Shown here: in pieces, positions 10,921 through 48,208 of the stretch | Layout of the letters: each line of letters begins with the position of its first letter | How positions within the stretch are numbered: position 1 is the first letter of the stretch | Origin: Eledone cirrhosa | Taxonomy: Eukaryota | Assembly (NCBI GenBank): GCA_964016885.1 | Contig: CAXHJY010000001.1 | Span: 372,001 to 436,000, forward strand | Direction of reading: 5' to 3' | DNA: 64,000 nt | Notes under the pieces: generated by a model | Told to the model about the DNA's origin: nothing | The model's database searches: none | The model's input: the letters and a program-made list of their open reading frames with translations, nothing else | Position numbers and translations under genes: made by a program

Positions 10921-10949
10921 GAATCCTTAATAGAATGAATTTATATTAT

Positions 10950-22077: not shown

Positions 22078-23091
22078 CTAACAGTGCTGCGATCGAATGT
22101 GGCTTTTTAGCCCAGCCAATGATCTAAAATGTCTTGCACAGAGTCGGCAACCAAAACATTTACTGGGAATAGTCGGCTGTGGTTGGAGTTCGTGTACTTT
22201 TGCATGTCGCTTGAGTCCTCCTGCTGATTTACATTCTCTACCACATGTTTGGCAAGCATGATGAGTAGCATCTCCAACAGCAGCCTGGTAGTCAACCACT
22301 GGTCTTACTTTATGACTGCGAAGATGACTTTCGAGTCCAGCTTTGCTTAGGCAGAGTCTCGCACAGACGCTGCATGTCAGAAACATAGGAGGACCCTCGC
22401 CGTCTGGAAGTGCAACAGCAATACCCTTCCTCACGTCCCGCTTTACTTTCTCGTGTGCGATTCGAGATGCCTCAAAGGCAACTTTTCCCTCATATACAGT
22501 CTTTCTCCATTTATTACGATCAGCAGCAATATTTTCCCACGTATCAGCAGAGATGTTAGCGTCTTTCAGAGAGGCTTTCAAGGAATCCTTATACCTCTTT
22601 TTTGGTTTATGTGGCGGTCGTTTTCCTTTAACCAACTCTCCATAGAAGATTTGTTTTGGTATTCTAGAATCCTTCATCCTGGCAAGGTGACCACTCCAAC
22701 GGAGTCGCTGCTTAAGCACAAGAGCTTCTATACTGTCACACATAGAGCTTTCCAAAATCTCGACATCACTGATGTGGTCCCTCCAGCGAACGCCATGTAT
22801 CCGTCTGAGACACATCTGATGGAAACGCTCCAATTGCTTAAGGTGGCGTCGATATGTGACCCAGGTCTCGCAGGCATAAAGAAGACAAGAGAGTACACAT
22901 GCCCTGTACACCTTTACCTTTGTCCTCCTGCATATGTCTCGCCGACCCCAGAGTCGCCTTTCTAGCTTTCCGAAAGCATCACTTGCTTTCCTAATCCTAA
23001 GTGAGATTTCACCGTCAAGGTTGCCGTATCGATTGACAGTGCTTCCCAGGTAGACAAACTGATCAACCACTCCAAGTCGTTTGCCATACAC
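22078..23091 (-). CDS. Host RTE ORF, 3' part: RT thumb plus three C2H2 zinc fingers
   Basis: FVYLGS, KASDAFGKL, LLYACETW, LRWSGHLARM, RIPKQIFYGEL. Fingers CSVC..HLRSH, CQTC..HAKVH and CRLC..HIRSQH. Confidence 0.93.
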   Translation of the reverse strand: MYGKRLGVVDQFVYLGSTVNRYGNLDGEISLRIRKASDAFGKLERRLWGRRDICRRTKVKVYRACVLSCLLYACETWVTYRRHLKQLERFHQMCLRRIHGVRWRDHISDVEILESSMCDSIEALVLKQRLRWSGHLARMKDSRIPKQIFYGELVKGKRPPHKPKKRYKDSLKASLKDANISADTWENIAADRNKWRKTVYEGKVAFEASRIAHEKVKRDVRKGIAVALPDGEGPPMFLTCSVCARLCLSKAGLESHLRSHKVRPVVDYQAAVGDATHHACQTCGRECKSAGGLKRHAKVHELQPQPTIPSKCFGCRLCARHFRSLAGLKSHIRSQHC

Positions 23092-23625
23092 AGGGTTTCT
23101 CTTAGTAGCTTTTTCATGTCGTTAATATTATGATGTTCCCTGCTGTATTAGCGTTAAATTTTCCCTGCTGTATTAGCGATAAATTTTCGAGGGTTTCTCT
23201 TAGTAGCTTTTTCATGTCGTTAATATTATGATGTTCCCTGCTGTATTAGCGTTAAATTTTCCCTGCTGTATTAGCGATAAATTTTCGAGGGTTTCTCTTA
23301 GTAGCTTTTTCATGTCGTTAATATTATGATGTTCCCTGCTGTATTAGCGTTAAATTTTCCCTGCTGTATTAGCGATAAATTTTCGAGGGTTTCTCTTAGT
23401 AGCTTTTTCATGTCGTTAATATTATATTATGATGTTCCCTGCTGTATTAGCGTTAAATTTTCCCTGCTGTATTAGCGATAAATTTTCGAGGGTTTCTCTT
23501 AGTAGCTTTTTCATGTCGTTAATATTATGATGTTCCCTGCTGTATTAGCGTTAAATTTTCCCTGCTGTATTAGCGATAAATTTTCGAGGGTTTCTCTTAG
23601 TAGCTTTTTTCATGACGTTATTATT
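23092..23625 (+). repeat. 98-bp tandem monomer array (5 full copies + 1 partial) at the 5' end of the guest LINE
   Basis: Units start at 23092, 23190, 23288, 23386, 23489 and 23587. They are near-identical and each holds two copies of TTCCCTGCTGTATTAGCG(T/A)TAAATTTT. Confidence 0.93.
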
Positions 23626-23932
23626 GTTAATTTTACTGATGTAGTATTAACTTGGATATTTACCATGCGACCCTCAGCTCCTACCTCACAATTTCCCTCC
23701 CCCCCCACCCCCACACACCACCATAGTCTATTCGACCAATCAAACCTAGCATGCCATTTCCACTGCTGCTGCTGCTGCTACTACCTGCCTAACTAACTCT
23801 CTCCTCCTCTGGCGCATCCCAACACACCCTGCCATTACCCCACCACCACTGTCCTTCTAGCCCTCAATTTTCCCACCGTTAGGGATGGATGAGCTGGGAA
23901 TACACGAGCAACTCTGAATCAATAGATGAAAT

Positions 23933-26900
23933 ATGAATCTGCGAGCTACCAAGCACCCACGTGAAGCGCCAACCCAGAGACCCTCCCCTACGAGTGTCGA
24001 CAAATGCCCAAAACTCCGAGTTGGTACCATCAATGTAGGCTCAATGAAAGGAAGAGCAGGAGAAATCGTAGAAATGCTAGAGCGAAAGGAAGTTGATGTA
24101 TGCTGTGTGCAAGAGACTAGATGGAGAGGAGGGTCTGCTAGAGTCCTTGTAGGAAAAAGCCAGTGCTACAAATTTTTCTGGGTGGGAAATGACGATGGGA
24201 TGGGTGGTGTAGGTATACTATTAGCTGACAAGTGGGTAGATAAAGTAATCTCAGTGTACAGGGTAAATGCAAGAATCATTAAACTCAGACTAGTCCTGAA
24301 TAAGACAATTACCACAATAATATCAGCTTACGCACCCCAATCGGGGCTGCCAGACGAACTTAAGGATAGGTTTTACGAGTCCCTAATACACACTACTGCT
24401 CTAACAGACGACAAGGACTTCCTAATCATTGCAGGAGATTTTAACGGACACGTAGGTAAACACTGCGACGGCTTCAATAGAGTACATGGAGGCCATGGAG
24501 TTGGCACAAGGAATGAGGAAGGATTCAGACTTCTAGAATTCTGCGACGCCAATGACATGTCGATATGTAACACAAACTTTAAAAAACCCGACAACCACCT
24601 GATCACCTATAGATCAGGGGAGCACTCTAGTCAGTTAGATTTTATCCTCATCAGAGGACGTGACAGATGGACGGTCGTAAACACAAAAGCCTTCCCTAGT
24701 GAGGAATGTACATCCCAACATAGCTTAGTTGTCAGCGACCTCACGGTCAGAACTAGACGAGCCCTGAAACAGAGGCCAACCTGGAGAAGAAAGATCTGGA
24801 AGCTGAAAGTCCCCTCAACCAGTAACAGATTTAAAGATATTTTACTCAACGCCTACGACAGTAAAGAAGAACAGATAGAGACATTTAACGTAGAAGAGAA
24901 CTGGGAGTTCCTAAAAAATAACTTACTAGAGGCGACGGATGAGGTTTGTGGCTGGAGTAAGACCTCAAGCAGGAGGAGAGTGACTTGGTGGTGGAACAAT
25001 AAGGTAGATGAAGCAGTCAAGGCCAAGAGACAGGCATGGAAAGAATGGAAGAACGGGGGGAGCAGGGTACATTACATAGAGACCAAGAGGGAAGCTAGGC
25101 GACAAGTATACTTAGCTAGGAGGGAAGCAGAGGATAGAAAATTCAAGCATGTTTTACAACGTGAGGACCAGAAACAGGAGGTATTCAAGATTGCGAGGCA
25201 GTGTGTCAGAGATAGTTGTGATGTCATTGGAGAGAAGTGTATCCGGAATGATAAAGGTGAGCTTGCCCTCACAAGTGCTGAGAAGAAAGATGCATGGAAG
25301 AGTCATTATGATAGATTACTAAATGAGGAGAATGCATGGGAAGAAGAGACCCTACCCCACGTAGACCCTATAGAGGGACCAGCAGTACAAGTCAGCGGCA
25401 GCGTAGTAAGTAAGGCAATCAGAGATATGAAGATAGGGAAGGCAACCGGTCCATCGGGTATAGCTGCCGAGATGCTGAAGGCATCTGGGTCTGTAGGTCA
25501 CACTATAACCACACGTATCGTTAACCAGGTAATACTAGAGGGGGCCATACCAAAAGATTGGTGCAGTAGCATCATTGTCAACTGCTACAAAGGTAAAGGC
25601 GATGCACTAGATAGAGGAAACTATAGAGGTATAAAGTTGATGGACCAGGTCATGAAAGTAACAGAAAGAGTTATAGCACAGCTGATTAGGGACCGGGTGA
25701 ATATAGACGAGATGCAATTTGGGTTTGTTCCAGGGAAAGGCACCACTGATGCGCTCTTCCTTGTGAGGCAATTACAGGAAAAGTACCTAGCTAAAAGTAA
25801 GCCACTCTACTTGGCATTTGTCGACCTTGAGAAAGCCTTTGACAGAGTTCCACGTGCAGTAATCTGGTGGGCTCTTAGAAAACTAGGAGTAGATGAATGG
25901 CTTGTGAAAGCGGTACAAGCCATGTATAGGGGAGCAGTCAGCAAAGTTAGGATTGGCAATGAGTATAGCGAGGAATTTAGCGTACAGGTTGGGGTCCACC
26001 AGGGCTCTGTTCTTAGCCCTCTCCTGTTCATCATAGTCCTGCAGGCAATAACGGAGGAGTTTAAGACCGGATGCCCATGGGAACTCCTGTATGCTGATGA
26101 CCTCGCACTCATAGCTGAATCTATGGTAGAACTAGAGAATAAATTCCAAACCTGGAAGCAGGGACTAGAGAGAAAGGGCCTCAAAGTCAACATGACAAAG
26201 ACTAAGGTCCTTATAAGTAGACGAGAAAACAGAACCCAGATCCCCTCAGGGAAATGGCCTTGCTCAGTATGTAGGAAAGGTGTAGGTAGGAACTCCATTC
26301 TTTGCCCCAAATGCAAACAATGGGTACACAAGAGATGTAGCGGGATCTCAGGAAGCTTAATTAAGAATGTAGGATTCACATGCAGCAGCTGTGCTGAAAC
26401 AGCAAGCAAACAGCCACAGGAAACAAGTACCACCAATCTCTGGGAGGGCCCTGTAGAAACAGTAGACAGCTTCTGCTACCTAGGTGACCGAATTAGCAAC
26501 GGAGGTGGGTGCTCAGAAAGTACAATAACTAGGGTAAGAACGGGATGGAAGAAGTTTAGGGAACTACTACCACTGCTAGCTGCAAAAGGCTTCTCCCTCA
26601 GAATGAAAGGCAGACTGTATGATGCGTGTATCCGAACAGCGATGTTGCATGGTAGTGAGACCTGGGCGCTGAAGGTGGAAGACTTACGTAGATTAGAGAG
26701 AAACGAAGCCTGCATGCTCCGATGGATGTGTAACAGTAATATACGTGAACGACAAAGCATAAATGAATTGAGAGAGAGACTGAGCATAAGAGGAATCAAA
26801 TGCTGCGTGCAGGAGAGGCGGTTACGCTGGTATGGACATGTGATGCGTATGAAGGATGACAGCTGCATAAAAAGGTGCAGAGCACTAGAAGTTGATGGAA

Positions 26901-27052
26901 ACCGCGGAGTGGGGAGACCCAAGATGACTTGGGATGAGGTGATAAAAGCCGACCTTACCCAACTACACCTCTCAAAGTCAATGACACACGACCGTGACTT
27001 CTGGCGTCACGCAGTAATACAGGGTACCCGACCTCCCATGGGTACATGCTGA
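23933..27052 (+). CDS. RTE LINE protein: AP endonuclease + RT with an inserted C4HC3 (PHD-type) finger
   Basis: INVGSM, VQETRW, AYAPQ, GDFNGHVG, LDF, SQHSLV. NYRGIKL, QFGF, FVDLEKAFD, GVHQGSVLSP, LLYADD. CSVC-CPKC-HKRC-CSSC. FCYLG, LHGSETW, LRWYGHV. No stops. Confidence 0.96.
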   Translation: MNLRATKHPREAPTQRPSPTSVDKCPKLRVGTINVGSMKGRAGEIVEMLERKEVDVCCVQETRWRGGSARVLVGKSQCYKFFWVGNDDGMGGVGILLADKWVDKVISVYRVNARIIKLRLVLNKTITTIISAYAPQSGLPDELKDRFYESLIHTTALTDDKDFLIIAGDFNGHVGKHCDGFNRVHGGHGVGTRNEEGFRLLEFCDANDMSICNTNFKKPDNHLITYRSGEHSSQLDFILIRGRDRWTVVNTKAFPSEECTSQHSLVVSDLTVRTRRALKQRPTWRRKIWKLKVPSTSNRFKDILLNAYDSKEEQIETFNVEENWEFLKNNLLEATDEVCGWSKTSSRRRVTWWWNNKVDEAVKAKRQAWKEWKNGGSRVHYIETKREARRQVYLARREAEDRKFKHVLQREDQKQEVFKIARQCVRDSCDVIGEKCIRNDKGELALTSAEKKDAWKSHYDRLLNEENAWEEETLPHVDPIEGPAVQVSGSVVSKAIRDMKIGKATGPSGIAAEMLKASGSVGHTITTRIVNQVILEGAIPKDWCSSIIVNCYKGKGDALDRGNYRGIKLMDQVMKVTERVIAQLIRDRVNIDEMQFGFVPGKGTTDALFLVRQLQEKYLAKSKPLYLAFVDLEKAFDRVPRAVIWWALRKLGVDEWLVKAVQAMYRGAVSKVRIGNEYSEEFSVQVGVHQGSVLSPLLFIIVLQAITEEFKTGCPWELLYADDLALIAESMVELENKFQTWKQGLERKGLKVNMTKTKVLISRRENRTQIPSGKWPCSVCRKGVGRNSILCPKCKQWVHKRCSGISGSLIKNVGFTCSSCAETASKQPQETSTTNLWEGPVETVDSFCYLGDRISNGGGCSESTITRVRTGWKKFRELLPLLAAKGFSLRMKGRLYDACIRTAMLHGSETWALKVEDLRRLERNEACMLRWMCNSNIRERQSINELRERLSIRGIKCCVQERRLRWYGHVMRMKDDSCIKRCRALEVDGNRGVGRPKMTWDEVIKADLTQLHLSKSMTHDRDFWRHAVIQGTRPPMGTC

Positions 27053-27348
27053 AGCATATAAACAATATGCCCCCCCCCCCCCACCGCAAGGTGGTCGTGG
27101 AGGTGCCACGGCAAAAAAGCACCCAGCCCACACTGTAAAGTGGACGTGTAGGCGCCACGAAAAAGCACCCAGCACTCACTGTAAATGAGGTTGGTGTTAG
27201 GAAGGGCATCCAGCTGTAGAAATCAAGCCAGATCAGTTCCTGTATGAGCAAGGCATGGTCAGCCGACCAGACACTGCCCACAACAGGACAACCCGTCTAA
27301 CCCATGCTAGCGTGGAAGAACGGACGTAAAACGGTGATGATGATGATG

Positions 27349-29880
27349 ATAGATGTTTGGTTCAGTGTACTGCCTACCAGGTGCAGGTTGGTACATGACG
27401 ACGGTTTTCTTGAGACTGACAGTCAAACCCAGGGCAGTGCAAGCGTCAGAAAATACATTCAAAATGTGCTGCATATCACTCTCTGTGTGCGCTACAAGAT
27501 CGCAATCATCTGCATACAAGAGGTCTCTTATGACTGATGTAAATACTTTTGTCTTCGCAGCAAAGCGCCTGATGTTAAATATGCTGCCTGAGGTTCGATA
27601 TCGGATGTAAACACCATGCTCGCAATTCCTGAATGCAATACAGAAAACCATTGCAAAGTATATGGCAAACAGGGTCGGTGCTGGAATATCCCCCTGTTTC
27701 ACTCCATTTTTTACTGAGATAGGCTCCGACATGTTACCTCCGACATTAACCCAAGCCTTCATGTCGTCATGGAAAGACCTAACTAAAGCAAGGAACTTAT
27801 CAGGGCAACCAAGTTTCTGGAGAACCTTCCATAATGCATCTCTGTTGACAGTATCGAAAGCCTTTGTCAGATCGACAAAAACCTGATACAGATCCAAGCC
27901 CTGTTCAATGCACTTCTCCTGGAGCTGTCTAGCTGAGAAGATCATATCAGTAGTGCCGCGTCCAACACGAAAACCAGATTGACTTTCAGGAAGGACACAA
28001 TCTGCAATGTGTGTCAGCAGACGGTCCAGAAGCACCCTACATAAAACTTTCCCCACAACAGAAAGCAATGATATACCTCTGTAGTTCCCACAATCATTCC
28101 TGTTACCCTTTCCCTTGTACAAGACCACCATTACTGCATCTCTCCAGTCCTCAGGCACGGATTCATTAGCCCATATCCTTCCAAACAGAGAGTGAAGATG
28201 TTGCAGGAGTCTCTCACCACCATATTGTAGGAGCTCAGCATGTATGCCATCCATACCTGGAGATCTTCCACTGTTCAGCTTCGAAATAGCCACTGCAACC
28301 TCCACAAGTGTCGGAGGTTCTGCGAGAGCTACTTTCACAGGACTTTCCGGAATGAGATTGAGGAAATCTTCACTGACGACAGATGGCTGATTCAAAAGAT
28401 CATCAAAGTGCTCTCGCCACCTTCGTAGAATTCCCTGTGAGTCACGAAGAAGTTCTTTGCCATCCTTGCGGCGAATCGGTGTCACCAGAGAAGAAGACGG
28501 TCCATAAACCTCACGCAAGAGACTGTACAACAGCTTTGTGTTATTGCAATCAGACGCAGTTTGTATCTCACCAGCCTTCTCACTCCACCACTGATCCTTC
28601 ATCTGAGAAAGACTCCGCCTAACACGTGATTTTACATCCCTGAGCTCCTCATGCAACGTATTCCTCTCCTGTGGCTTTGCCGTCAAGTAGCGTGACAGAG
28701 CGCGCCTCTTATCAGCCAACAAGTCATCTATATGCACATCTTTCTCATTAAACCAGTCCTGATGTTTTCTCTGCACCAATCCCAGAACACGTCTGCCTAC
28801 ATCATAAACCGACTTTTTAAGGGTCGGCCAATCCTCACCAAGATCTGCAGCCTGCATCTCTTCTTCCAATGTTCTCTTCACATTTTTATCCTTAAGACGA
28901 GCAGCATTCAATCTTTTGGGCAGGGTAACACCAGGAGCCCGGATTTTACGTTTGGTGATTAGATTCACTTTTGCGCGTACCAGGCGGTGGTCCGTCCAGC
29001 ACTCAGCTCCACGAAGAACACGAACACACTGCACATCCTGTCTGTCACGCATCCTGACTAGGACGTAGTCCAAAAGATGCCATTCCCTAGATGCAGGATG
29101 CATCCATGTGGTCTTGAATTTGTTCTTTTGTTGGAACATGGTGTTGGTAACACACAGATCCAGCTCCTCACACATCTGCAGCAAGAGCATACCATTGCTG
29201 TTACACTTTCCCACCCCATGCCTTCCGATTACATTCCATGTGTTAAAATCCCTACCCACTCTAGCATTAAAGTCACCAAGCACGATGACTTTGTCTGCCT
29301 GAGGGATATTTCTTAAAACACCTTTCAAGGCATGGTAAAAGGACAGTTTTTCTTCATCGACAGAATTCATAGTTGGAGCATACACACTCACCAGGGTAGC
29401 ATATCTTCCCTTGTCCAGCGGAACTCTCATGGACATAAGACGCTCACTAATCCCCACTGGGAATTCTTCTAATTTATTCACCAGTACAGTCTTAACAGCA
29501 AATCCTACCCCAGCCTCTCTTCTGGTTCCTTCATCTCTTCCTTTCCAGAAGAATGTATATTCTCCACAAAATTCCGTAAGATGACCATCCCCAGCTAACC
29601 TCGTCTCAGACAAAGCCACGATGTCAAGATCGTAACGTCGAAGCTCCTTTGCAACAAGAGCGGTCCTTCGTTCAGGACGCTCCAAAGAATCCCTGTCAAG
29701 CAGCGTCCGTACGTTCCAGCAGCCAAGACTAAATGCCCTGTTTGGCTCTATTACAATGGCACGATGACGGGCGGGCCCAGGTTGTGATAACTTGGGGCCC
29801 CTGCCCTTATTGCCAATGATCTCTTTTGTTCCAGAACCCAAATTGGCAATTATCTCGTTTACATTGTTCTGGAACATCAT
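27349..29880 (-). CDS. Host RTE ORF, 5' part: AP endonuclease + reverse transcriptase
   Basis: WNVRTL, LSETR, VYAPT, LGDFNARVG, LDY, TDHRLV (APE). NYRGISLL, QSGFR, FVDLTKAFD, GVKQG, LLYADD (RT). Uninterrupted up to the insertion point (..TEPNIY). Confidence 0.95.
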
Positions 29881-29918
29881 TGAATTGGGAAAAAAAAAAA
29901 AAAAAAAAAATAATAATA

Positions 29919-29953
<35 letters not shown>

Positions 29954-30612
29954 ACACTATTAATAATTATTAATGCACTCGTGCAATGCCTGTGCGTGAC
30001 GAATATTTTTAAAGTGAGGAAAGACTGTGCACTGAACCAATCCCACTCTCTGAGCGACAGTAGCTATAACCCGAAAAGAAGAAAAGATCAACATCATCGG
30101 TAACTACTGAGCCGCAGGTTTTATATCGGAGTTAACCCAGTTTCCTGAGATGCCTTCTCCTAGAAGAATACCCTGACATGGGCTAGGGGTTCTTCACTCC
30201 CAGTGGTTTAACTGCGCGATCGGGCATCCAGCCCGATTATTTCTATGTCCCCGCGCAAAAAAAAAAAAAAAAAAAAATAAATTACTTATTGACACTTATA
30301 CGTACGACATACACACACACGCATACATATGCGTGCACACAGCAACACTCACACATACAACAAACACACACACACGCTACTCTACTGACTTACACGCACA
30401 CACACACATATATATATATATATTACCGTCATTACTGATACAAGATTACCAGATTATGTCAACTGTTGACTTTCAAGAGTTTGTATAGTTGAAGCCGATC
30501 GTATTACAGTCCAGTATTACTATAATTGCTTTACAGCATAGAGTTATGGCTCTCCACATACATACATACATACATACATACATACATACATACATACATA
30601 CATACATACATA

Positions 30613-33600
30613 ATATGGCGACCGTTGTGGTCAGTGTCCGATAATCGGACGTGTGTAATTACGGCTTACATGAAGGCAACATACCATATATTGGAAAAAT
30701 TTGAGCTACATTACGCGGTAAGATTACATACAATAATTCTACATAAGTGTTTGAACTGTAAGTGTGTTGTAAAACACCTATTTATATGAACGATACATAC
30801 ACTTATGATATATGAACGATACATACACTTTAACATATAAATGCAACGTTGTTATATTACATTTATAAAGAAATATTACATTTATATAAAACACAGCTGT
30901 AGAATTAAAAACTAACTGAAAAGAAATATTACTCAAGCTGTGAATAACTTTAAATTTGATTCTGACAGAACTTTGTCGTAACTTTTAAAGAAGATCATCG
31001 ACTATTTTGAAAAATAAATACGAAATATTAGTGAATAGACGAACTCATCATGGCAAAAAGTACAAGTCTCCTTCGACCAAATCGCAATTACAACCGTTGT
31101 ATACAGTGGACCTACGAGCTTAACAAAGTATTATATGAAGCATACAAACAATCTGAACCCCAAAAGTTCGGTTTTATGCAAAGGCTAAAAACTTTATGGA
31201 ACTCCAAACACCCAGAATTAGACTTTTCTCCAAAGCATTTAAATGAACACGCAAAACGTATCATTAGATGTAAATTGATACATCTAACGGAATCGAGTGA
31301 TACTACAAATACAGCCCTTGTAGACAACCACCCCACCTCCACTGACAGACAAAGGGAATGGCCAGCTAAATCTAACAGTGAACAGCTCACCAACAATTTT
31401 GCTGAAATTCATCCCACTTCCACTGAAGAACAGCGAGAAAGGTCAGCTGACTCTAGTAGTAATTGTCACCACATCAACAACGAGGCTGAAATTCATGACT
31501 CTACTGAACAAACAGAGCACCAAAAACTTGTGGGCTCCCTACAAGTGATATGGAATGATATGTTTCAAGAGATACACAGCCTTAATGTGAGTGACAGACC
31601 ATACAACACTAGAGTCAGTAAAGAACCCACTAAATTGGAATTGGAAGCGGTGAACGAAATAGCTGGCAATTATCTGAAGGCTATACGATCTAAAGGTGTA
31701 GAAACGACATTTGAAACGCTTAATGTTTTGTTATATGTTTCAGCTGTCACATTGCTAGCATATAACACACATCTAAAACCACGCAATCAAGATACAAACA
31801 GAAAGCCTGAACCAGCGTGGATGCGAAATTTAGAAACCAAAATTTTGTCCCTGAGACGAAGTATCTCACACATCGCAGTCGTTATGAAATGCAACATAGA
31901 GAGCAACTTCACACAACACCAGGAAGACCTAAAGAAAAAGTTAGAGAGAAGATTTGGAGATACAAAATTTAAAACTTTGAACTCCAAATTACACCAGTTG
32001 AAACAACAACTCACAGCTACAACAGAAAGACTAAAATATAAGTCAACAGCACATAAACGACAAGTGCTAAATAGATTGTTTGCCAGAGATCCTAAATCAG
32101 TTTATCGCAGCTTCGGTGGCAAAAGCTCAATCTCTGTAAATGACACCCCTTCAAAAGAACAGGTTGAGAGCTACTGGAGATCTGTATGGGAAACGGATGA
32201 CGGATTCAACAGACAAGCTAATTGGCTAAAAGAACTGGAACAGGACTACTGCCAACATGTCCAGACAAAACAATATGACATAGATGGGTCAATACTGGAA
32301 ACAGCTCTACAGAAAATGTCGAATAGGAAATCGCCAGGCCCAGACCTCATTACAGGATACTGGTTGAAGAATTTCACTTTCTATCGGCAAGATCTCATAC
32401 GGCTGTTTACAGAAACCATTAAGGGCACACAAGAACTGCCCAGATGGTTATCAACTGCCTCTACTCTCCTCATTCCCAAAAATAGCCAAACCACCCTTGC
32501 TAAAAATTACCGCCCAATTGCCTGCCAAAACATCATGTATAAATTATATACTGGGTGCCTTAACCTGTTCTTACAGGATCACTGTGCTACCAACAACATC
32601 ATAACACCTGAGCAAGCTGGTGGAAAGAGGGAGGTGTGGGGTTGCATAGATCACCTACTAACTAACAAAATGATTCAGGAAAAAACAACAAAGAATCGCA
32701 GAAACATGACTGTCGTGTGGCTGGACTATCAAAAAGCATTTGATAGTGTACCACATGGGTGGATTATTAAGGCTTTACAGTTAGCTAAAGTCCCACAACC
32801 ATTGGTAGCTGCTGTTGAACGCCTGACCAAGAACTGGTACACCAGTTTGATCCTTAGAGGTGAGAAGGAGCAGGTTAAGACTGATAAGATACATTACCAG
32901 AAGGGCATCTTTCAGGGTGATAGCTTGTCAGTGCTACTCTTCGTTCTCTCACTGAATCCACTATCTTACCTACTCAGGAAACAAGGTCGACAAAGAAGTG
33001 GGACCAGAAGTATCTCCCATCTTTTCTTTGTTGATGACCTGAAGTTGTATGGGCCAAATATCAATGACATCAAGAAACAATTGGACCTCATTACACAATT
33101 TTCAACAGACATCAAAATGAAATTTGGTGAGTCCAAGTGTGCATATTTGGCAGTAAAACGTGGAAGAGCTGTGCCCTCCTCTAGAAATCTAGAGATGAAC
33201 GGCCTGACAATACAACCTCTGCAGTCAGGTGACAACTACAGATATCTTGGACAGGATGAGAATGTCAGATATGATGGACCCATAAATAAGGAGAGAACCA
33301 GAACTGAATACCTCAGAAGAGTAAAGAAAATATGGTCATCAGAACTGTCAGCATACAACAAATACATTGCCCACAATACTTATGCTGTGCCAATTCTAAC
33401 GCCAACATTTGGCCTACTGAACTGGTCATTGCAAGAACTAAGTGAGATGGATGTTAGAACTCGAAAACTTCTCAGTGTTACTGGGAACTTTAACATCAAT
33501 GGTGATGTGGATAGGCTATACTTCTCACGCAAGGAAGGTGGCCGGGGTCTAAAATCAATATTAACAACATATGAGACCCGGATAGTGATACTGAAGCAAC

Positions 33601-34639
33601 ACCTTCAACAGAGGAAAAAGGTTGGCAACCATCTTGCCCAGGTTTATGACCATGAAAAAAGAAATATCATTAGAATAGCGACTGATCTGGAGGAGAGATA
33701 TGGAATAAAGCCCGATATAAATCTCTCACCCAGAGAAATCGGAAGATCCTATTCAATGTTCAAACAAGAAAAAAAAATTGACCAATTTACAGAAAAAGTT
33801 GTGCATGGATACTTGAGGCGTAAAACACAGACCATAGAGGGGATAAACCACTCAAAAAGCCTGGCATGGAGTTCCGACAAGTTTATGACATCACACCTTG
33901 AGGGATATCTCTATGCAATACAGGAACAAGAACTCCCTACCAAATATCTGCTGCACAAAAGAGGAGGGCCAGCAGCTGACAATAAATGTAGGCTATGTAA
34001 AACAAAGATCGAGGATGTAAGCCACATTGTTGCCAGCTGCGAAAGAATGTCATCTCGCTACTACCTCCCCATGAGACACGATGGGATAGCTAGAACCATC
34101 TGGAACGCACTTCGGAAAACAAAATCAACAACAAACGAGGAAGAATATATTGAGACAGATGGCACTAAGGAATACTGGTGGAACCTGAAAATAAAAACTG
34201 CCACCAAATTAAAGCACAACCGGCCTGATATTGTAGTTTGGGACCACACATTGAAAACGTGTTCTGTTGTGGAGATCAGCTGCCCACTTGATGTAAACGT
34301 TGTCAGAAAAATACAGGAGAAGGAGGACATCTACGGACCATTGATGAGGAGTTTACAAATCCAGTATCCAAGATACACCTTTAGCTTCATACCCATCATT
34401 ATTGGTGCTACGGGTTATATACCAACCCGCTTGGACCAAAGTATGACTGAACTTGGATTTGCGGACAAAAAGCGCAGCTCCCTAATTCATAGTCTACAAA
34501 TGGCTGCGATAGCTGGCACCTTCAAAATTTGCAAAACATTCTTGCGATTCAAGGGATGACAATTTCTTTTCTTTTACAACCTTGCCACCAGGAAGGTGGC
34601 CGGTCAAAAAATATACTCAAAATTAAGAGAAAGAGAAAA
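30613..34639 (+). mobile_element. Apparently full-length R4/Dong-like site-specific non-LTR retrotransposon embedded in (CATA)n
   Basis: (CATA)n at 30557-30612 and from 34640. About 440-bp 5'UTR, a single ORF and an 80-bp 3'UTR. Confidence 0.88.
31050..34559 (+). CDS. RT + CCHC knuckle + restriction-like (PD-D/ExK) endonuclease, 1169 aa, intact
   Basis: KSPGPD, NYRPIAC, WLDYQKAFDSVPH, GIFQGDSLS, HLFFVDDLK, YRYLG, EGGRGL, CRLC..HIVASC, RHD and RPDIVVWD..VVEIS. Confidence 0.95.
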   Translation: MAKSTSLLRPNRNYNRCIQWTYELNKVLYEAYKQSEPQKFGFMQRLKTLWNSKHPELDFSPKHLNEHAKRIIRCKLIHLTESSDTTNTALVDNHPTSTDRQREWPAKSNSEQLTNNFAEIHPTSTEEQRERSADSSSNCHHINNEAEIHDSTEQTEHQKLVGSLQVIWNDMFQEIHSLNVSDRPYNTRVSKEPTKLELEAVNEIAGNYLKAIRSKGVETTFETLNVLLYVSAVTLLAYNTHLKPRNQDTNRKPEPAWMRNLETKILSLRRSISHIAVVMKCNIESNFTQHQEDLKKKLERRFGDTKFKTLNSKLHQLKQQLTATTERLKYKSTAHKRQVLNRLFARDPKSVYRSFGGKSSISVNDTPSKEQVESYWRSVWETDDGFNRQANWLKELEQDYCQHVQTKQYDIDGSILETALQKMSNRKSPGPDLITGYWLKNFTFYRQDLIRLFTETIKGTQELPRWLSTASTLLIPKNSQTTLAKNYRPIACQNIMYKLYTGCLNLFLQDHCATNNIITPEQAGGKREVWGCIDHLLTNKMIQEKTTKNRRNMTVVWLDYQKAFDSVPHGWIIKALQLAKVPQPLVAAVERLTKNWYTSLILRGEKEQVKTDKIHYQKGIFQGDSLSVLLFVLSLNPLSYLLRKQGRQRSGTRSISHLFFVDDLKLYGPNINDIKKQLDLITQFSTDIKMKFGESKCAYLAVKRGRAVPSSRNLEMNGLTIQPLQSGDNYRYLGQDENVRYDGPINKERTRTEYLRRVKKIWSSELSAYNKYIAHNTYAVPILTPTFGLLNWSLQELSEMDVRTRKLLSVTGNFNINGDVDRLYFSRKEGGRGLKSILTTYETRIVILKQHLQQRKKVGNHLAQVYDHEKRNIIRIATDLEERYGIKPDINLSPREIGRSYSMFKQEKKIDQFTEKVVHGYLRRKTQTIEGINHSKSLAWSSDKFMTSHLEGYLYAIQEQELPTKYLLHKRGGPAADNKCRLCKTKIEDVSHIVASCERMSSRYYLPMRHDGIARTIWNALRKTKSTTNEEEYIETDGTKEYWWNLKIKTATKLKHNRPDIVVWDHTLKTCSVVEISCPLDVNVVRKIQEKEDIYGPLMRSLQIQYPRYTFSFIPIIIGATGYIPTRLDQSMTELGFADKKRSSLIHSLQMAAIAGTFKICKTFLRFKG

Positions 34640-34645
34640 CATACA

Positions 34646-34677
<32 letters not shown>

Positions 34678-34828
34678 CATATACATACATATACACACAT
34701 ACATATATACACATACACATACATATATACATATACACATATATACACATATACATATACATACACATATATACATACACATACATACATACATATATAT
34801 ACATACACATACATAGATATACAGATAC

Positions 34829-35105
34829 ATCATCATCATCATCATCATTTCGTATAAGTCCGCTTTTTCCCTGCTTGCAAGGGTGGGACGGGAACTGATT
34901 CTGGCCTGATTTCTACAGCTGGATGCCCTTCCTAACACCAACCTCATTTACAATGAGTGCTGGGTGCTTTTTTGCCGTGGCACCTCCACGACCACTTTGC
35001 AGTGGAATGATATTGACCCCAGTCCCTATCATCTCATTTCTACAGCTGAGTAAACTGGAGCAATGTGAAATAAAGTGTCTTGCCCAAGGAAACAACACAT
35101 CACCC
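34829..35105 (-). mobile_element. 5'-truncated CORE-like/RTE-tail SINE
   Basis: Matches 6361-6620; (GAT)n tail. Confidence 0.82.
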
Positions 35106-35154
35106 ATACATACATATATACATATACATACATACACACATATACATACATATA

Positions 35155-35358
35155 CTCTGGTACAAACACTACACCTGTGACAATTATTGACACATAGTGC
35201 TGGGCCCTTGGTACCATGTGACGACAAGTGCAGGGAGATCTCCAGATATAAAGCAATGCCTGTGCCGTGAAGCAAAGGCACTGCACAAAGCCAGTCCCAC
35301 TCTCTTAACCAAGATGATATTTACCAAAAAGAAGTACCAACCAACTGGTGACCTGACA
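35155..35358 (-). mobile_element. Deleted copy of the bipartite RTE element
   Basis: Matches 20425-20615, joined to the 20895-20912 terminus. Confidence 0.7.
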
Positions 35359-35562
35359 TACGTATATATACACATACATACATATATATACATATACATA
35401 CATACATACATATATATACATAATATTCATATACATACATACATACATACACATACATACATATACATAAGCATATACACATATACATAAGTATATATAC
35501 ATATACACAAGAATATATACATATACATACATACATATATACATATACATACATATATACAC

Positions 35563-35820
35563 ATCATCATCATCATTCATCATTTCATTTTACGCTCGCT
35601 TTTTCCCTGCTTGCAAGGGTGGGACGGGAACTGATGCTGGCTTAATTTCTACAGCTGGATGCCCTTCCTAACACCAACCTCATTTACAGTGAGTGCTGGG
35701 TGCTTTTTTGCCGTGGCACCTCCACGACCACTTTGCAGTGGAATGATAGGGACCCCTGTCCCTATCATCTCATTTCTACAGCTGAGTAAACTGGAGCAAT
35801 GTGAAATAAAGTGTCTTGCC
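35563..35820 (-). mobile_element. 5'-truncated CORE-like/RTE-tail SINE
   Basis: Matches 6361-6600. Confidence 0.82.
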
Positions 35821-35938
35821 CATACATACATATATATATATATACATATCAGTCCCCATACACATACATATATATACCAGTACTCATATATATATCAGTA
35901 CTTATACATTTGTACTTATATATCAGTATTTAAACATG

Positions 35939-35978
<40 letters not shown>

Positions 35979-36310
35979 AGTACTCATACATACACACATA
36001 TATTAGTATTCATATATTAGTACTTAAACATACATACATATATATACCAGTACTCATATACATATATATCAGTACTTATACACATACATATATATATCAG
36101 TACTTATACACATACACACATATCAGTACTCATACATATACACATATATATATATCAGTACCCATATTCACATACACATATACATATATATATATACCAG
36201 TACCTATATACATACACTTATCAGTACTCATACATATATATATACCAGTACTTATACACACACATATATATATATATATACATATACATCAGTATATATA
36301 TTATTTCATA

Positions 36311-36560
36311 TTACTCAGCTGTAGAAATGAGATGACAGGACCGGGGCCCCCACTGCAAAGTGGTCGTGGAGGTGCCACGGCAAAAAAGCACCCAGCCCAC
36401 ACTGTAAAGTTGACGTGGAGGTGTCATGGAAAAAAAAAGCACCCAGCACTCACTGCAAACGGGGTTGGCGCCAGGAAGGGTACCCAGCTGTAGAAACCAA
36501 TCCACAATCAGCTCCCGTCCCACCCTTGCAAGCATGGAAAAGCGGACGTATGATGAAGAT
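36311..36560 (+). mobile_element. 5'-truncated CORE-like/RTE-tail SINE
   Basis: TTACTCAGCTGTAGAAATGAG..GGCAAAAAAGCACCCAG..GCGGACGTATGATGA. Confidence 0.78.
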
Positions 36561-36667
36561 GATATATATATATATATTAGTATATATATGCACATACATA
36601 TGTACACATATACACATACATATATGTACATATATATACACACATATATATCAGTGTACATATATAT

Positions 36668-37359
36668 AAACATAAATTATCGAGATTCGCATTTCGGCCC
36701 ACGAAATAACGAAAAACAACCTCCGAGATGTGAGGCAAGTGCTCAATGGTTCAGATGAACCAGAGCTATAACAAACGTTAAACGCCAAACACACTGAGAC
36801 GATGGTTAAACAATCATTCGCATAGCCAAAAAAACGATCAAGTAATTCGGGTATTGAAAATTTACCCGGACCCCTGGAAGGTTGGTAAAATCCAGTATTT
36901 GGGTTTCTGCGGCTCCTAAATCAAGTACCGTCCGCTTACATAAATAATGTCAGGCTTCTGGTAAGATGATTGAACAAGGAAGCCACTTTCTCAATAGGTT
37001 TTAGTTCAATGTTAATACAAGGACTGACTATTGCTGACTCCACGTGGGGATCGGCAAGGGAGGCAGCCTCTATATCAGGCGAATAAATTCAGTTATGTAT
37101 ATTTTTGCAAGAATGCAAAAACATCACAAATCGAATAGAGTTCTCAACAGAAGGGTTAAAATTAACATAAGCTATTCATCAGTCAATAGAATCAACTAAA
37201 AAATCAAGAAAATTAACTGGTCAATAGCTAAGAGTCTGGAGATAAATACAAACATAAATTATCGAGATTCGCATTTCGGCCCACGAAATAATGAAAAACA
37301 ACCTCCGAGATGTGAGGCAAGTGCTCAATGGTTCAGTTGAACCAGAGCTATAACAAACG

Positions 37360-37360
<1 letters not shown>
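36668..37360. mobile_element. Unclassified non-coding element with 111-bp terminal direct repeats, in TA microsatellite
   Basis: 36668-36778 is repeated at 37250-37360 (offset 582, about 2 mismatches). No recognisable ORF inside. Confidence 0.65.
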
Positions 37361-37393
<33 letters not shown>

Positions 37394-37896
37394 AATGAAT
37401 ATTTATTCAATTTAAAGCGCCAATTATCTATATATAACAAGTTATCAATTTTTCTAGGGATAGGGAAATTTTCAGTTTGTTTTTATATTTTCACTTCATT
37501 TTTTACTTTCTATTTAATACAGTCTTTGGTCCAATATAATCCTGACACAGTATTTGAACCAGTTTACCTCATATATATGTATGCACACACAACACTCAAG
37601 TTTCCCCATCTACTGCCATTTCATTCATATTTATTGTTTAATTAACTCTGGTCTAATTCATCAACTATTGTTAATTATATTATTACGTAGATTTCTTATA
37701 AAATCTAGTGCTTATATACGTGTATATATACGCATATATATATACACGCAAGAGGGAGACACTGAAATATATGTAAAGAGAGGGGGAGAAATAAGAGGGA
37801 GATAGAGTTATAGAAGTAAAGAGAGGGGGAGAAATAAGCGGTAGATAGAGTAATAGATGTAAATAGAGGTAAAATGAGTAAGAGATAACTCGAGAA

Positions 37897-37983
37897 GTGC
37901 GGAGAGGGTGAGATTCGAACCATGTAAAGTCGTTGGCCCCTGAGGTTCGTAAGCAGGGCTGCTACTGACTGAGCAACGCGGGC
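37897..37983 (-). pseudogene. tRNA-like sequence (tRNA pseudogene or SINE head)
   Basis: Minus strand has A-box-like GTTGCTCAGTCAGTAG and B-box GGTTCGAATC with a long variable region. The acceptor stem does not pair, so it is not called a functional tRNA. Confidence 0.45.
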
Positions 37984-39044
37984 AGCAAGGCAAATCGATA
38001 TAAAATAACGCTTATATCGATAAAAAAAAACAAAAATTTCCATGTCGCCATCTTGTTTGTTGTTTTTATTTGACGTAAACATTTCGCTGCTCTAGCGTCT
38101 TATTTCCTATTAGATTACACTTAATTCCATTAAACATTCATTCTTGGTCTCGTGGTAAACTATTTCATCTATATTTATATCGCTGTTACAGCCTTTTATT
38201 TTTACATCTTTCACATATACCGGTCGTAAAAGTAGCTTTATAACAAGAAACGATGATATAACTCCGCAAAATGTGTTCTTGAGCAAGACACTTCACTTCA
38301 TATTGCTCCAGTACACCTAGTTACACATAGACAGATACATACACAGATAGAAATAAGAGGTAGATAGAGTGATAGATGTAAAGAGAGGGGGAGATGTAGT
38401 AATAGATGTAAAGAGAGGGGGAGAGATAAGAGGGAGATAGAGTAAAAGATGTAAAGAGAGGGGGAGAAGGACGAGTTAGATAGTGTAAAAGATTTAAAGA
38501 GAGGGTGAGAGTGTGACACACATTTATCTGTCTATCTCTCTCTATTTTAACACCGGTCGTATAATTAGTTTTATAACACCGCTATATTACCTACATGAAA
38601 GAGGTAAATAATTATTTCTTAAATGTATAGAACATGTTTCTCTTGTCTTCTTAAATGTATAGAACATGTTTCTTATTTATATTCTTAACATAGCTAGGAC
38701 CTTATCTCATTTACTGGTCTCTACTTTTAGGACTTTGCTGGTCTCACGTGCCCTCCATCAAGACACACTCGTCCCTTCTCTCATACTAATTACTACACAT
38801 ATGTATATATATTTATTTTAAGAAACCTTACTGACAAATAATATAAAGTGTTTGTAAAGTGGGGAAGAGTAGTTTTACGGTGGGGTTGTTATATAGATAT
38901 CGTTTTTGCAGTGGGGTTGTGACTGGCGTATAATAATGAGTCACTGTTGATGTATATACAAATCATATTTTGGATATAAGTGAAGTTATTTAAGAGATTT
39001 AGTTGTTTTGTATATATTCCAGTTGTTTTCTCCCTGTTTCTTCT

Positions 39045-39548
39045 ACAACAACTACAACAGTACGCGATGGGGCCCACCCACAGCCCCGGCGGACAGAATG
39101 GAGAAGGCGTTTCCCCGGAGCAAGGCAAGGGAGACGCGCTTTGGAAAAGCCACTCCAACTCGCGGGGCTCACACCTGCGGCTGGCCAGCTCAGCCCCTAT
39201 GGTGGTGAGTAAGGAGGTAACCCTGGGGCAGAGGACACCAGAAGTCTCCACTTCCAGGGGTACGACCGCAAACCTGTCGAAGAGCGACCGATATTTGAGG
39301 AGTTTGGCCCCCTCAGGCTGACGTGCAGCAGAACCTGGGCCAGTCGCAGACTTCACCAGCTGGGAAGGGAAGCCTGCAGCGTCCAAGCCATACTTAATGA
39401 CCTCGTTGAGGGCAGCATGGCGTGGATTGCGGCCGGCACTGTGGTGACGGGAAAGCGGGTGGAGGCCGAAAGAGCCCATGGTGGAACCGCAGCGACATTG
39501 GTGTGAGGCCGAGCCTCAGGGAAACGCCGATGCGCAGGCTATGGTTGT
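39045..39548 (-). mobile_element. CRE-clade-like non-LTR element 3' fragment (RLE domain, internally deleted)
   Basis: GRNPRHAALNEVIKYGLDAAGFPS, GSAARQPEGAKLLKYRSL..VPLEVETSG and WLFQ; GC-rich island. Confidence 0.68.
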
Positions 39549-39551
39549 CTA

Positions 39552-39846
39552 GAAGAACAAGTCAACATCATTGGATACCATCAGGGTTGCAGGTGTTATA
39601 TCAGAGTTTTCCTTCTCCTAGAATTCTGCCGCGACAAAGGCTAAGGGGTAATCTCTCCCGGTGATTTTGGATGGCCATTGACGCTTAAGAGCTCCTTTGC
39701 CCTTTGACAGGTTTTGTTTTTAGTCCTGCAGGATTTCCAAAGCCACCCTCCTCACCAAGGTGGGGTTTCCAGTTTAGTCGCCAACGACCTGACCATGAGA
39801 CAGGTTGTACTGGGATACATGTTACCAGTAGCAACAACTGGTGACA
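39552..39846 (-). mobile_element. 5' part of the bipartite RTE element family
   Basis: Matches 20615-20907. Confidence 0.75.
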
Positions 39847-39853
39847 TATACAT

Positions 39854-39900
<47 letters not shown>

Positions 39901-39953
39901 TACATACATACATACATACATACATACATACATACATACATACATACATACAT

Positions 39954-40736
39954 AGCCTGGCATGGAGTTCCGACAAGTTTATGACATCACACCTTGAGGG
40001 ATATCTCTATGCAATACAGGAACAAGAACTCCCTACCAAATATCTGCTGCACAAAGGAGGAGGGCCAGCAGCTGACAATAAATGTAGGCTATGTAAAACA
40101 AAGATCGAGGATGTAAGCCACATTGTTGCCAGCTGCGAAAGAATGTCATCTCGCTACTACCTCCCCATGAGACACGATGGGATAGCTAGAACTATCTGGA
40201 ACGCACTTCGGAAAACAAAATTAACAACAAACGAGGAAGAATATATTGAGACAGATGGCACTAAGGAATACTGGTGGAACCTGAAAATAAAAACTGCCAC
40301 CAAATTAAAGCACAACCGGCCTGATATTGTAGTTTGGGACCACACATTGAAAACGTGTTCTGTTGTGGAGATCAGCTGCCCACTTGATGTAAACGTTGTC
40401 AGAAAAATACAGGAGAAGGAGGACATCTACGGACCATTGATGAGGAGCTTACAAATCCAGTATCCAAGATACACCTTTAGCTTCATACCCATCATTATTG
40501 GTGCTACGGGTTATATACCAACCCGCTTGGACCAAAGTATGACCGAACTTGGATTTGCGGACAAAAAGCGCAGCTCCCTAATTCATAGTCTACAAATGGC
40601 TGCGATAGCTGGCACCTTCAAAATATGCAAAACATTCTTGCGATTCAAGGGATGACAATTTCTTTTCTTTTACAACCTTGCCACCAGGAAGGTGGCCGGT
40701 CAAAAAAATATACTCGAAATTAAGAGAAAGAGAAAA
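39954..40736 (+). mobile_element. 5'-truncated second copy of the R4/Dong-like element, flanked by CATA repeats
   Basis: Near-identical to 33858-34639, with the same 3' end GAGAAAGAGAAAA|CATACATA. Confidence 0.93.
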
Positions 40737-40899
40737 CATACATATACACATACATACATACATATATACATATACACATATACACACATATACACATATA
40801 CACATATATACATATACACATATACATATACATACACATATATACATACACATACATACATACACATACATACATATACACATACATACATCATCATCA

Positions 40900-46799: not shown

Positions 46800-48208
46800 A
46801 TAATTTAATTTAATTTAATTTAATTTAATTGAAATAAAATGAATTAAATTAAATTAAATTAAATTAAATTTGATTAAATTAAATTAAATTAAATTAAATA
46901 TAAATTAAATTAAATTATATATTTTTTTATTTTATTTATTTTTACTTTTTTATTAATTACTTTCATAATTAATTAATTATGTTAATTCATTTTATTTCAA
47001 TTTAATTTAATATAATTCATTTTATTTCAATTAAATTAGATTAAATTAAATTAAATTAAATTAATTTATATATTTTTTTATTTTATTTATTTTTACTTTT
47101 TTATTAATTACTTTCATAATTAATTAATTATGTTAATTCATTTTATTTTGAATTGAATTGATTTGGAGTGGATTGAATCGAGTCGAGTCGAGTCGAGTCG
47201 GGTCGGGTCGGGTCGGGTCGGGTCGGGTCGGCTCGGCTCGGCTCGGCTCGGCTCGGCTCGGCTCGGCTCGGCTCGGCTCGGCTCGGCTCGGCTCGGCTCG
47301 GCTCGGCTCGGCTCGGCTCGGCTCGGCTCGGCTCGGCTCGGCTCGGCTCGGCTCGGCTCGGCTCGGCTCGGCTCGGCTCGGCTCGGCTCGGCTCGGCTCG
47401 GCTCGGCTCGGCTCGGCTCGGCTCGGCTCGGCTCGGCTCGGCTCGGCTCGGCTCGGCTCGGCTCGGCTCGGCTCGGCTCGGCTCGGCTCGGCTCGGCTCG
47501 GCTCGGCTCGGCTCGGCTCGGCTCGGCTCGGCTCGGCTCGGCTCGGCTCGGCTCGGCTCGGCTCGGCTCGGCTCGGCTCGGCTCGGCTCGGCTCGGCTCG
47601 GCTCGGCTCGGCTCGGCTCGGCTCGGCTCGGCTCGGCTCGGCTCGGCTCGGCTCGGCTCGGCTCGGCTCGGCTCGGCTCGGCTCGGCTCGGCTCGGCTCG
47701 GCTCGGCTCGGCTCGGCTCGGCTCGGCTCGGCTCGGCTCGGCTCGGCTCGGCTCGGCTCGGCTCGGCTCGGCTCGGCTCGGCTCGGCTCGGCTCGGCTCG
47801 GCTCGGCTCGGCTCGGCTCGGCTCGGCTCGGCTCGGCTCGGCTCGGCTCGGCTCGGCTCGGCTCGGCTCGGCTCGGCTCGGCTCGGCTCGGCTCGGCTCG
47901 GCTCGGCTCGGCTCGGCTCGGCTCGGCTCGGCTCGGCTCGGCTCGGCTCGGCTCGGCTCGGCTCGGCTCGGCTCGGCTCGGCTCGGCTCGGCTCGGCTCG
48001 GCTCGGCTCGGCTCGGCTCGGCTCGGCTCGGCTCGGCTCGGCTCGGCTCGGCTCGGCTCGGCTCGGCTCGGCTCGGCCCGGCCCGGCTCGGCTCGGCTCG
48101 GCTCGGCCCGGCCCGGCCCGGCCCGGCCCGGCCCGGCCCGGCCCGGCCCGGCCCGGCCCGGCCCGCACCGCACCGCACCGCACCGCACCGCACCGCACCG
48201 CACCGCAC
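46800..48208. repeat. Compound pentanucleotide array: TTTAA/TTAAA > TTGAA > TCGAG > TCGGG > (TCGGC) x170 > CCGGC > CCGCA
   Basis: TCGAG from 47178, TCGGG from 47198, perfect TCGGC at 47228-48077, CCGGC to about 48162 and CCGCA x9 at 48163-48207. Confidence 0.95.

What the first reader, a model, noticed from the sequence alone, without database searches (positions are those of the whole stretch)
30557..40760. Intact R4/Dong-like retrotransposon that appears to target (CATA)n microsatellites
Seen: a stop-free 1169-aa RT-CCHC-RLE ORF. The full-length copy (30613-34639) and a near-identical 5'-truncated copy (39954-40736) both have pure (CATA)n at the 5' junction and the same 3' register ...GAGAAAA|CATACATA. 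Established: RLE elements are often sequence-specific, and Dong (R4 clade) inserts in (TAA)n. Inference: a young, possibly active family with a tetranucleotide-repeat specificity I do not recognise as described. Such elements are of interest for targeted insertion.
Basis: partly seen in the sequence, partly recalled or inferred. Interest (0 to 1): 0.75.

Follow-up and report, generated by a model that had tools for sequence, protein, structure and literature searches.

The report
Dong-type retrotransposon targeting CATA repeats
Thousands of near-identical copies of a jumping gene in this animal genome sit inside runs of the four-letter repeat CATA, almost always at the same point of the repeat; the gene likely picks that repeat itself, and its relatives described in the papers we found use the three-letter repeat TAA instead.

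Summary
Confirmed, and it holds genome-wide. The window carries an intact 1169-aa R4/Dong-type non-LTR retrotransposon (Myb-like N-terminus, RT, CCHC, restriction-like endonuclease) and an independent 99%-identical truncated copy. The genome holds 4,102 exact 3' ends; 3,361 are directly followed by CATA. Of 131 copies with both junctions, 124 have CATACATA just upstream, including copies truncated at many different points (background 0.5%), so the repeat is a target and no tail. (TA)n is 17 times more abundant but is rarely used. One empty paralogous site already holds (CATA)16. A second family here (about 50% amino-acid identity) shares the target; a third uses TAA. Metagenome relatives flanked by (CATA)n or (CTTA)n form one well-supported clade apart from TAA/TTA users. 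Ten literature searches found only TAA for Dong; Repbase and two key papers could not be read. 5' runs are longer than 3' runs (52 vs 19 nt): most likely upstream binding plus a short duplication, less likely new repeat synthesis. Cutting is untested. Earlier scan notes describe TAA/AAT Dong trains, none on CATA. New variant of a known kind.

The parts
30557..30612 (+). (CATA)14, upstream half of the target tract of copy 1
30615..31049 (+). 5' UTR, short-UTR subfamily (about 206 nt of a long-UTR copy replaced by 10 nt at 30877-30886); holds a GGACGTG motif at 30647 also seen near the 5' end of L301, L305, L306
31050..34559 (+). Single intact ORF, 1169 aa
   Evidence: model pLDDT 84, closest solved folds are R2 proteins
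31074..31289 (+). N-terminal three-helix Myb/SANT-like domain (aa 9-80), candidate repeat reader; followed by a low-confidence linker, aa 80-150
32472..33227 (+). Reverse transcriptase (aa 475-726; FVDD at aa 660-663)
33987..34040 (+). CCHC zinc knuckle (aa 980-997)
34218..34556 (+). Restriction-like endonuclease region (PD aa 1059-1060, E1075, K..Y near aa 1091-1095)
   Evidence: fold match to R2
34560..34639 (+). 80-nt 3' UTR ending GAGAAAA; predicted hairpin with its T-rich start paired to the purine-rich end
34640..34830 (+). (CATA)9 then degenerate CATA/TA/CA, downstream half of the target tract
39551..39845 (-). Fragment of a ~605-bp RTE-derived non-autonomous element that shares these tracts in the opposite orientation
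39851..39954 (+). (CATA)5-(CA)13-(CATA)15 before copy 2
39954..40736 (+). 5'-truncated copy 2, 783 nt, 99% identical, independent insertion
40737..40891 (+). CATACATA then degenerate CATA/TA/CA tract

Best explanation
This is a young, high-copy R4/Dong-type non-LTR retrotransposon whose copies sit inside (CATA)n tracts in one orientation and one register, and which likely selects those tracts through its own protein. Shown: domain layout, copy number, CATA at both junctions, fixed 3' register, avoidance of commoner repeats, one empty paralog that already carries the tract. Inferred by analogy with R2: the Myb-like domain on its flexible linker and the RT body would bind several CATA units mostly upstream of the cut; the endonuclease would nick the TATG strand so that the element's 3' end joins in front of a C; reverse transcription would prime from that nick and usually stop early (4,102 3' ends, 332 5' ends); a second cut a few units downstream would duplicate roughly 12-18 nt, invisible in pure repeat except as a longer upstream run. 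Each insertion leaves usable target on both sides, which would explain the head-to-tail stacks.
For: 3,361 of 4,102 3' ends followed by CATA; 125 of 149 minus-strand full 5' ends preceded by CATACATA within 2-8 nt; 124 of 131 and 118 of 131 at 5' and 3' junctions; positional sample 57 of 62 and 53 of 62. Background (TA)n 3.48% of bases, (ACAT)n 0.20%, yet 105 of 131 3' flanks begin with 2 or more CATA units and 4 with a TA run. Empty paralog L405 (16 units) versus filled L233 (9 + copy + 10 + copy + 4; 96.7% flank identity). 38,788 tracts of 12 or more units exist (minus 107) and only 3 of the first 23 are directly followed by a Dong-type piece. Second family: 26 of 30 ends followed by CATA. 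L301 and L306 from metagenomes have CATA at both ends. Contigs of public run X2 show CATA at truncated 5' ends and at the 3' end.
Against: No biochemistry; no empty allele of the same locus; the empty paralog is a single case. 741 of 4,102 3' ends are not followed by exact CATA (in the sample mostly one-base variants). 7 of 131 copies lack CATACATA upstream; I read most as later deletions but did not test that. Duplications are seldom visible: 14 of 131 versus a shuffled mean of 6.7, maximum 11. Some copies sit in mixed TA/CATA tracts (L020, L223, L226, L230), so strictness beyond one CATA unit is loose. The Myb fold match is modest (best Z 6.0).
Confidence: 0.85

Rival explanations
1. The element needs only one or a few CATA units and writes the long pure upstream run itself while the 5' end is joined (repeated slippage on the target, or a template jump onto a CAUA-tailed RNA). 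It would then build the microsatellite as well as use it.
For: 5' runs longer than 3' runs, median 52 vs 19 nt, p 5e-8 (51.5 vs 16.5 in the positional sample). In 28 copies with a short 3' run, 22 have a 5' run of 31 nt or more. L061 shows an 18-nt duplication followed by (CATA)7, L022 a 56-nt duplication followed by about 13 units. Upstream duplications at L097 and L220.
Against: Long tracts are common without Dong neighbours. The empty paralog already has 16 units and two insertions add about 7. Copies in mixed tracts gain no pure run. Upstream binding plus a short duplication predicts the same asymmetry.
Confidence: 0.15
2. Targeting is RNA-assisted: transcripts run into the downstream repeat, and the CAUA tail pairs with nicked or unpaired TATG strand. 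The endonuclease itself is only weakly specific.
For: No poly(A) or other tail; the 3' end abuts the repeat. An unrelated RTE-derived element uses the same tracts. Family 2 has a short CATA/CATG stretch inside its 3' UTR.
Against: A sharp, family-wide 3' register and target choice that follows the protein tree (CATA, CTTA, TAA/TTA clades) fit protein read-out. The RTE-derived element is looser and often sits in pure TA. Not exclusive with the main model.
Confidence: 0.2
3. Insertion is near random and copies in CATA tracts are merely retained, or the pattern is an assembly artefact.
For: The flanks are repeat-rich: of 131 copies, 36 have an RTE-type piece upstream and 34 downstream.
Against: The youngest copies show the pattern; one strand and one register; commoner repeats are not used; seen in a public run's contigs and in unrelated metagenome contigs.
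Confidence: 0.02

Closest known systems
Dong (Bombyx mori), DongAg, DongBg, Darwinula Dong1/2 (R4/Dong clade)
   Same: Single ORF with RT and restriction-like endonuclease, divergent N-terminal SANT/Myb-like domain, no N-terminal zinc fingers, microsatellite target (PMC7998251, passages; PMC3812793, passages).
   Different: [quoted passage not shown] This family uses (CATA)n and lies in a separate clade with CTTA users; TAA/TTA-flanked homologs are 26-32% identical. Dong has a 5' HDV-like ribozyme (PMC3774820, passages); none was detected here.
Octopus Dong-R4 LINE families
   Same: O. vulgaris has 5 recently active Dong-R4 families with 1,129 insertions (PMC13282606, passages and its one supplement); a full-length Dong is noted in O. 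bimaculoides (PMC9115989, passages). The closest named protein is from the octopod Argonauta hians, 53-56% identical.
   Different: No target sequence appears in the passages or supplement seen. Whether one of those families is this one could not be checked.
R4 (28S/26S rDNA-specific)
   Same: Same clade and domain layout. Two metagenome relatives sit in 28S rDNA; L344 has a duplication of about 30 nt.
   Different: Target is rDNA. The R4 paper was not held; its 13-bp duplication is recalled, not checked.
R2 (R2Bm, R2Tg)
   Same: Closest solved structures (phmmer E 3e-29; Foldseek E 1.5e-33); source of the inferred mechanism.
   Different: R2 has N-terminal zinc fingers and a unique rDNA site; 16-19% structural identity only.
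Other microsatellite-specific non-LTR elements: Waldo, Mino (AC), Kibi (TC), Koshi (TTC), Togen (TG), some Hero
   Same: Microsatellite targets (PMC3812793, PMC4640811, passages).
   Different: Other clades; the listed targets seen are di- or trinucleotides, none CATA or CTTA.

Membership tests
RLE non-LTR retrotransposon | RT followed by CCHC knuckle and PD..D/E restriction-like endonuclease in one ORF | tested here: met
RLE non-LTR retrotransposon | Variable 5' truncation, fixed 3' end, no terminal repeats | tested here: met
   4,102 3' ends vs 332 5' ends; 54 truncation points in 56 copies
R4/Dong clade | Divergent N-terminal SANT/Myb-like domain and no N-terminal zinc finger | tested here: met
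   Three-helix model; profile hits c-Myb at E 0.001 and other Myb proteins; Myb/SANT chains fill most top rows but best Z is 6.0; Pfam Myb hits in 2 of 18 aligned members, not in the window protein. Met on combined, individually modest evidence.
R4/Dong clade | RT phylogeny groups it with reference R4 and Dong sequences | tested here: inconclusive
   No named R4 or Dong protein could be fetched. The tree (44 rows, midpoint root, no outgroup) holds it with TAA/TTA-flanked, rDNA-inserted and lepidopteran homologs that share the N-terminal domain.
R4/Dong clade | Sequence-specific insertion in a repeated target | tested here: met
R4/Dong clade | Short target-site duplication | tested here: inconclusive
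   14 of 131 vs shuffled mean 6.7; about 3.5 units per insertion from one paralog pair
R4/Dong clade | 5' HDV-like self-cleaving ribozyme | tested here: inconclusive
   No Rfam ribozyme hit in 5 loci; own descriptor found none in 4 5' ends but had no positive control
Dong in the narrow sense | (TAA)n target | tested here: not met
   0 of 131 3' flanks begin with a TAA run; a separate family in this genome does use TAA, 17 of 20 loci
R2 clade | N-terminal zinc fingers and 28S rDNA site | tested here: not met
   No N-terminal C2H2 motif in the ORF; flanks are CATA
any | Endonuclease and priming activity on the target | not testable with these tools
   needs purified protein or a cell assay

The most novel reading that the evidence does not exclude
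A widespread branch of R4/Dong elements has moved from three-base to four-base repeat read-out and switched between CATA and CTTA, and its members lengthen their own target by writing extra pure repeat units at the 5' junction, so that they manufacture the microsatellite habitat that they and RTE-derived hitch-hikers then colonise.
Probability: 0.15. Interest if true: 0.8.

Novelty: new variant of a known kind. Interest (0 to 1): 0.52.

Why it matters
How restriction-like-endonuclease retrotransposons change target is an open question, and R2 is the only one worked out structurally. Here intact proteins 43-50% identical read CATA or CTTA (one base apart), and a TAA reader lives in the same genome, all with a 70-residue Myb-like domain that can be swapped. 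That makes the source of specificity directly testable. It also gives a target for the Dong-R4 expansion reported in octopus genomes and links it to their microsatellite content. As an insertion tool the value is limited: the target is dispersed in tens of thousands of places, not one safe site.

Tried and rejected
Rfam search and an own HDV-like descriptor found no 5' ribozyme; the descriptor had no positive control. No RNA holder was listed among public runs; this says nothing on expression. An empty allele from public runs was not sought: all runs are contigs, which I expected not to span tracts of this length, and no candidate with unique flanks and short tracts turned up. A systematic search for empty homologous sites among fetched loci was swamped by repeat matches and its output was cut; the one good pair came up by chance. 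The idea that RTE-type tails seed the CATA tracts was dropped as a general explanation: many of 30 such ends sit in pure TA. The first tree run did not finish; FastTree was used instead; loci with ORFs under 600 aa (L317, L342) and family 2 (385-aa piece) were left out. Synonymous/non-synonymous counts among 9 intact copies (66/113) were not interpreted. No named R4 or Dong reference came out of three protein searches. Papers not held: PMC4400214, PMC309301, PMC307436 and the STITCHR paper (DOI recalled). Low-depth near-identical pieces in runs X8, X9, X10, X13 were not used as evidence.

Full report
Observation. The window holds a stop-free frame at 31035-34559; from the Met at 31050 it gives 1169 aa with an RT domain, a CCHC knuckle and a PD..E endonuclease motif that are conserved in 12 aligned homologs. 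The closest solved sequences and folds are R2 proteins (model pLDDT 84). A second copy at 39954-40736 is 98.98% identical. Both end GAGAAAA|CATACATA and both follow CATA runs. Their 5' flanks are unrelated, so they are separate insertions.

Genome-wide counts. The genome (3.0 Gb) holds 4,102 exact matches to a 24-nt 3'-end pattern, with 0 for the reversed control; 3,361 continue directly with CATA. A 22-nt 5'-end pattern has 332 matches; on the minus strand, where matches are not double-counted, 125 of 149 have CATACATA 2-8 nt upstream. I fetched copies with flanks and kept 131 with both junctions, dropping those whose 5' end lay beyond the fetched stretch, those without the 3' pattern, and exact duplicates; a few probable segmental duplicates remain (L230/L231, L085/L086). 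124 of 131 have CATACATA within 30 nt upstream and 118 of 131 continue with CATA. Part of this set was picked for youth or full length, so I also counted the 62 taken in positional order on contig C1: 57 and 53 of 62; among truncated ones 51 of 56, at 54 different truncation points; background 0.5%. In 200 kb sampled at fixed positions, TA repeats cover 3.48% of bases, AC 0.77%, ACAT 0.20%, AAT 0.08%. Yet 105 of 131 3' flanks start with two or more CATA units, 4 with a TA run, none with TAA, and none has TATGTATG in the first 30 nt. This is target selection with fixed strand and register. Contigs of public run X2 show the same junctions; that run may be of the same source, so it is weak independent support.

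Age. The window copy belongs to a subfamily with a shorter 5' UTR. Nineteen such copies are 98.3-99.75% identical to it; 9 of 22 short-UTR and 2 of 26 long-UTR near-full-length copies keep an unbroken ORF. Present-day activity is not shown.

Does the tract exist beforehand? Overlapping matches to 12 and 13 units (235,399 and 196,611) give 38,788 tracts of 12 or more units. Of the first 23 on C1, 3 are directly followed by a Dong-type truncated end and 2 more have one 90-170 nt later, so most long tracts are unoccupied. One of them, L405, is an empty paralog of the filled site L233: 96.7% identity over 640 nt of flank, 16 units empty versus 9 + copy + 10 + copy + 4 filled. If the ancestral tract had 16 units, each insertion added about 3.5 units; this is one pair, and tract lengths drift.

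The asymmetry. Pure runs are longer upstream than downstream (median 52 vs 19 nt, 86 versus 43 copies, p 5e-8; tolerant tracts 72 vs 43). Visible duplications of informative 3' sequence are only modestly enriched (14 of 131; shuffled mean 6.7, maximum 11). I prefer an upstream binding footprint plus a short duplication. New synthesis of repeat units at the 5' junction is not excluded: L061 has an 18-nt duplication followed by seven extra units.

Relatives. A second family in this genome (about 42-54% amino-acid identity in its C-terminal part; 5,167 exact 3' ends) is followed by CATA in 26 of 30 loci. A third, distant family has TAA runs at its 3' end in 17 of 20 loci. Among 80 metagenome loci I inspected 35: L301 and L306 (45-46% identical) have (CATA)n at both ends; L305 has (CTTA)n at both ends, L303 and L304 at the 5' end, L307 and L317 at the 3' end (L307's truncated 5' end follows TAA). 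More distant loci show TAA, TTA, AAAT or TTC runs, two sit in 28S rDNA, and about a dozen show no repeat. In a FastTree tree of 44 proteins, 725 columns, the CATA and CTTA elements form one clade (support 1.0), split into a CATA group with the window protein (0.975) and a CTTA group (0.83); the TAA/TTA-flanked elements, with this genome's own TAA family, lie elsewhere. Several proteins in the clade have no known flanks. The closest named relative is from the octopod Argonauta hians; that the host is an octopod is an inference.

Candidate reader. Residues 9-80 fold as three helices, then a low-confidence linker. A profile of 18 homologous N-termini hits c-Myb at E 0.001; structural comparison puts Zeste, TRF1 and other Myb/SANT domains on top but with Z at most 6.0, within the range of common folds. 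The CATA/CTTA clade shares an R-x-N-R-x-Y extension before the first Trp that TAA users lack. That this domain reads the repeat is inference; PMC7998251 argues the same for Dong.

What is known. [quoted passage not shown] PMC3812793 (passages) lists AC, TC, TTC and TAA targets. PMC4640811 (passages) adds TG for Togen and says some Hero families target microsatellites. PMC3774820 (passages) reports Dong's 5' ribozyme. PMC13282606 (passages and its one supplement), PMC8967140 and PMC9115989 (passages) report Dong-R4 in cephalopods without a target. PMC5035012, PMC13580325, PMC13708176, PMC12988792 and PMC3124438 (passages) added nothing on this. Ten searches returned no paper giving a CATA or CTTA target for such an element. 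Repbase, Dfam, Kojima and Fujiwara 2004 and the STITCHR survey were not available; any of them, or their supplements, could already list this target. I put that chance at about 35%.

Verdict. A real, young, sequence-specific R4/Dong-type family whose (CATA)n target is well supported, part of a wider branch with four-base targets. Microsatellite targeting is a known habit of the clade, so this is a new variant of a known kind; its worth lies in the near-matched proteins with different targets. Interest 0.52.

Noticed in passing
window 20314-20911, 21017-21555, 35154-35345, 39551-39845; L151-L210: A ~605-bp non-autonomous element made of an RTE-type 5' UTR and 3' end, with 21,478 and 9,057 exact end matches. 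It sits antisense in TA and CATA tracts, often beside the Dong copies.
   Followed up: partly
L271-L300: Second CATA-targeting Dong-type family, 5,167 exact 3' ends, with a short CATA/CATG stretch about 105-110 nt inside its 3' UTR. No full-length copy was fetched.
   Followed up: partly
L381-L400: TAA-flanked Dong-type family with many intact ~1141-aa frames.
   Followed up: partly
L303-L305, L307, L317: Close relatives flanked by (CTTA)n, one base from CATA.
   Followed up: partly
window 30647-30655; L301, L305, L306 5' ends: A GGACGTG motif 19-33 nt from the 5' end is shared across families whose UTRs otherwise differ. It resembles the downstream promoter element (consensus recalled), so it may be an internal promoter.
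   Followed up: no
L343, L344: Relatives inserted in 28S rDNA, with a more canonical Myb domain; L344 has a duplication of about 30 nt.
   Followed up: partly
runs X8, X9, X10, X13 laid on window 30613-34639: Near-identical, low-depth pieces in runs labelled as other organisms. Contamination, diet or transfer; not resolved.
   Followed up: no
L097, L220, L224, L254: 5' junctions with duplicated upstream flank or short extra pieces of the element's own 5' part, like template-jump products.
   Followed up: no
window 23930-27052 (+), 27307-30063 (-), 22078-23121 (-): Long APE/RT-type LINE frames, one of 1040 aa without a stop.
   Followed up: no
window 9387-10940 (-): Broken frames that look Penelope-like (GIY-YIG-type motif; judged by eye).
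   Followed up: no
window 1-2361, 47198-48209, 48394-64000: Large 17-bp satellite arrays and a (TCGGC)193 pentamer array, as near a chromosome end or other satellite block.
   Followed up: no
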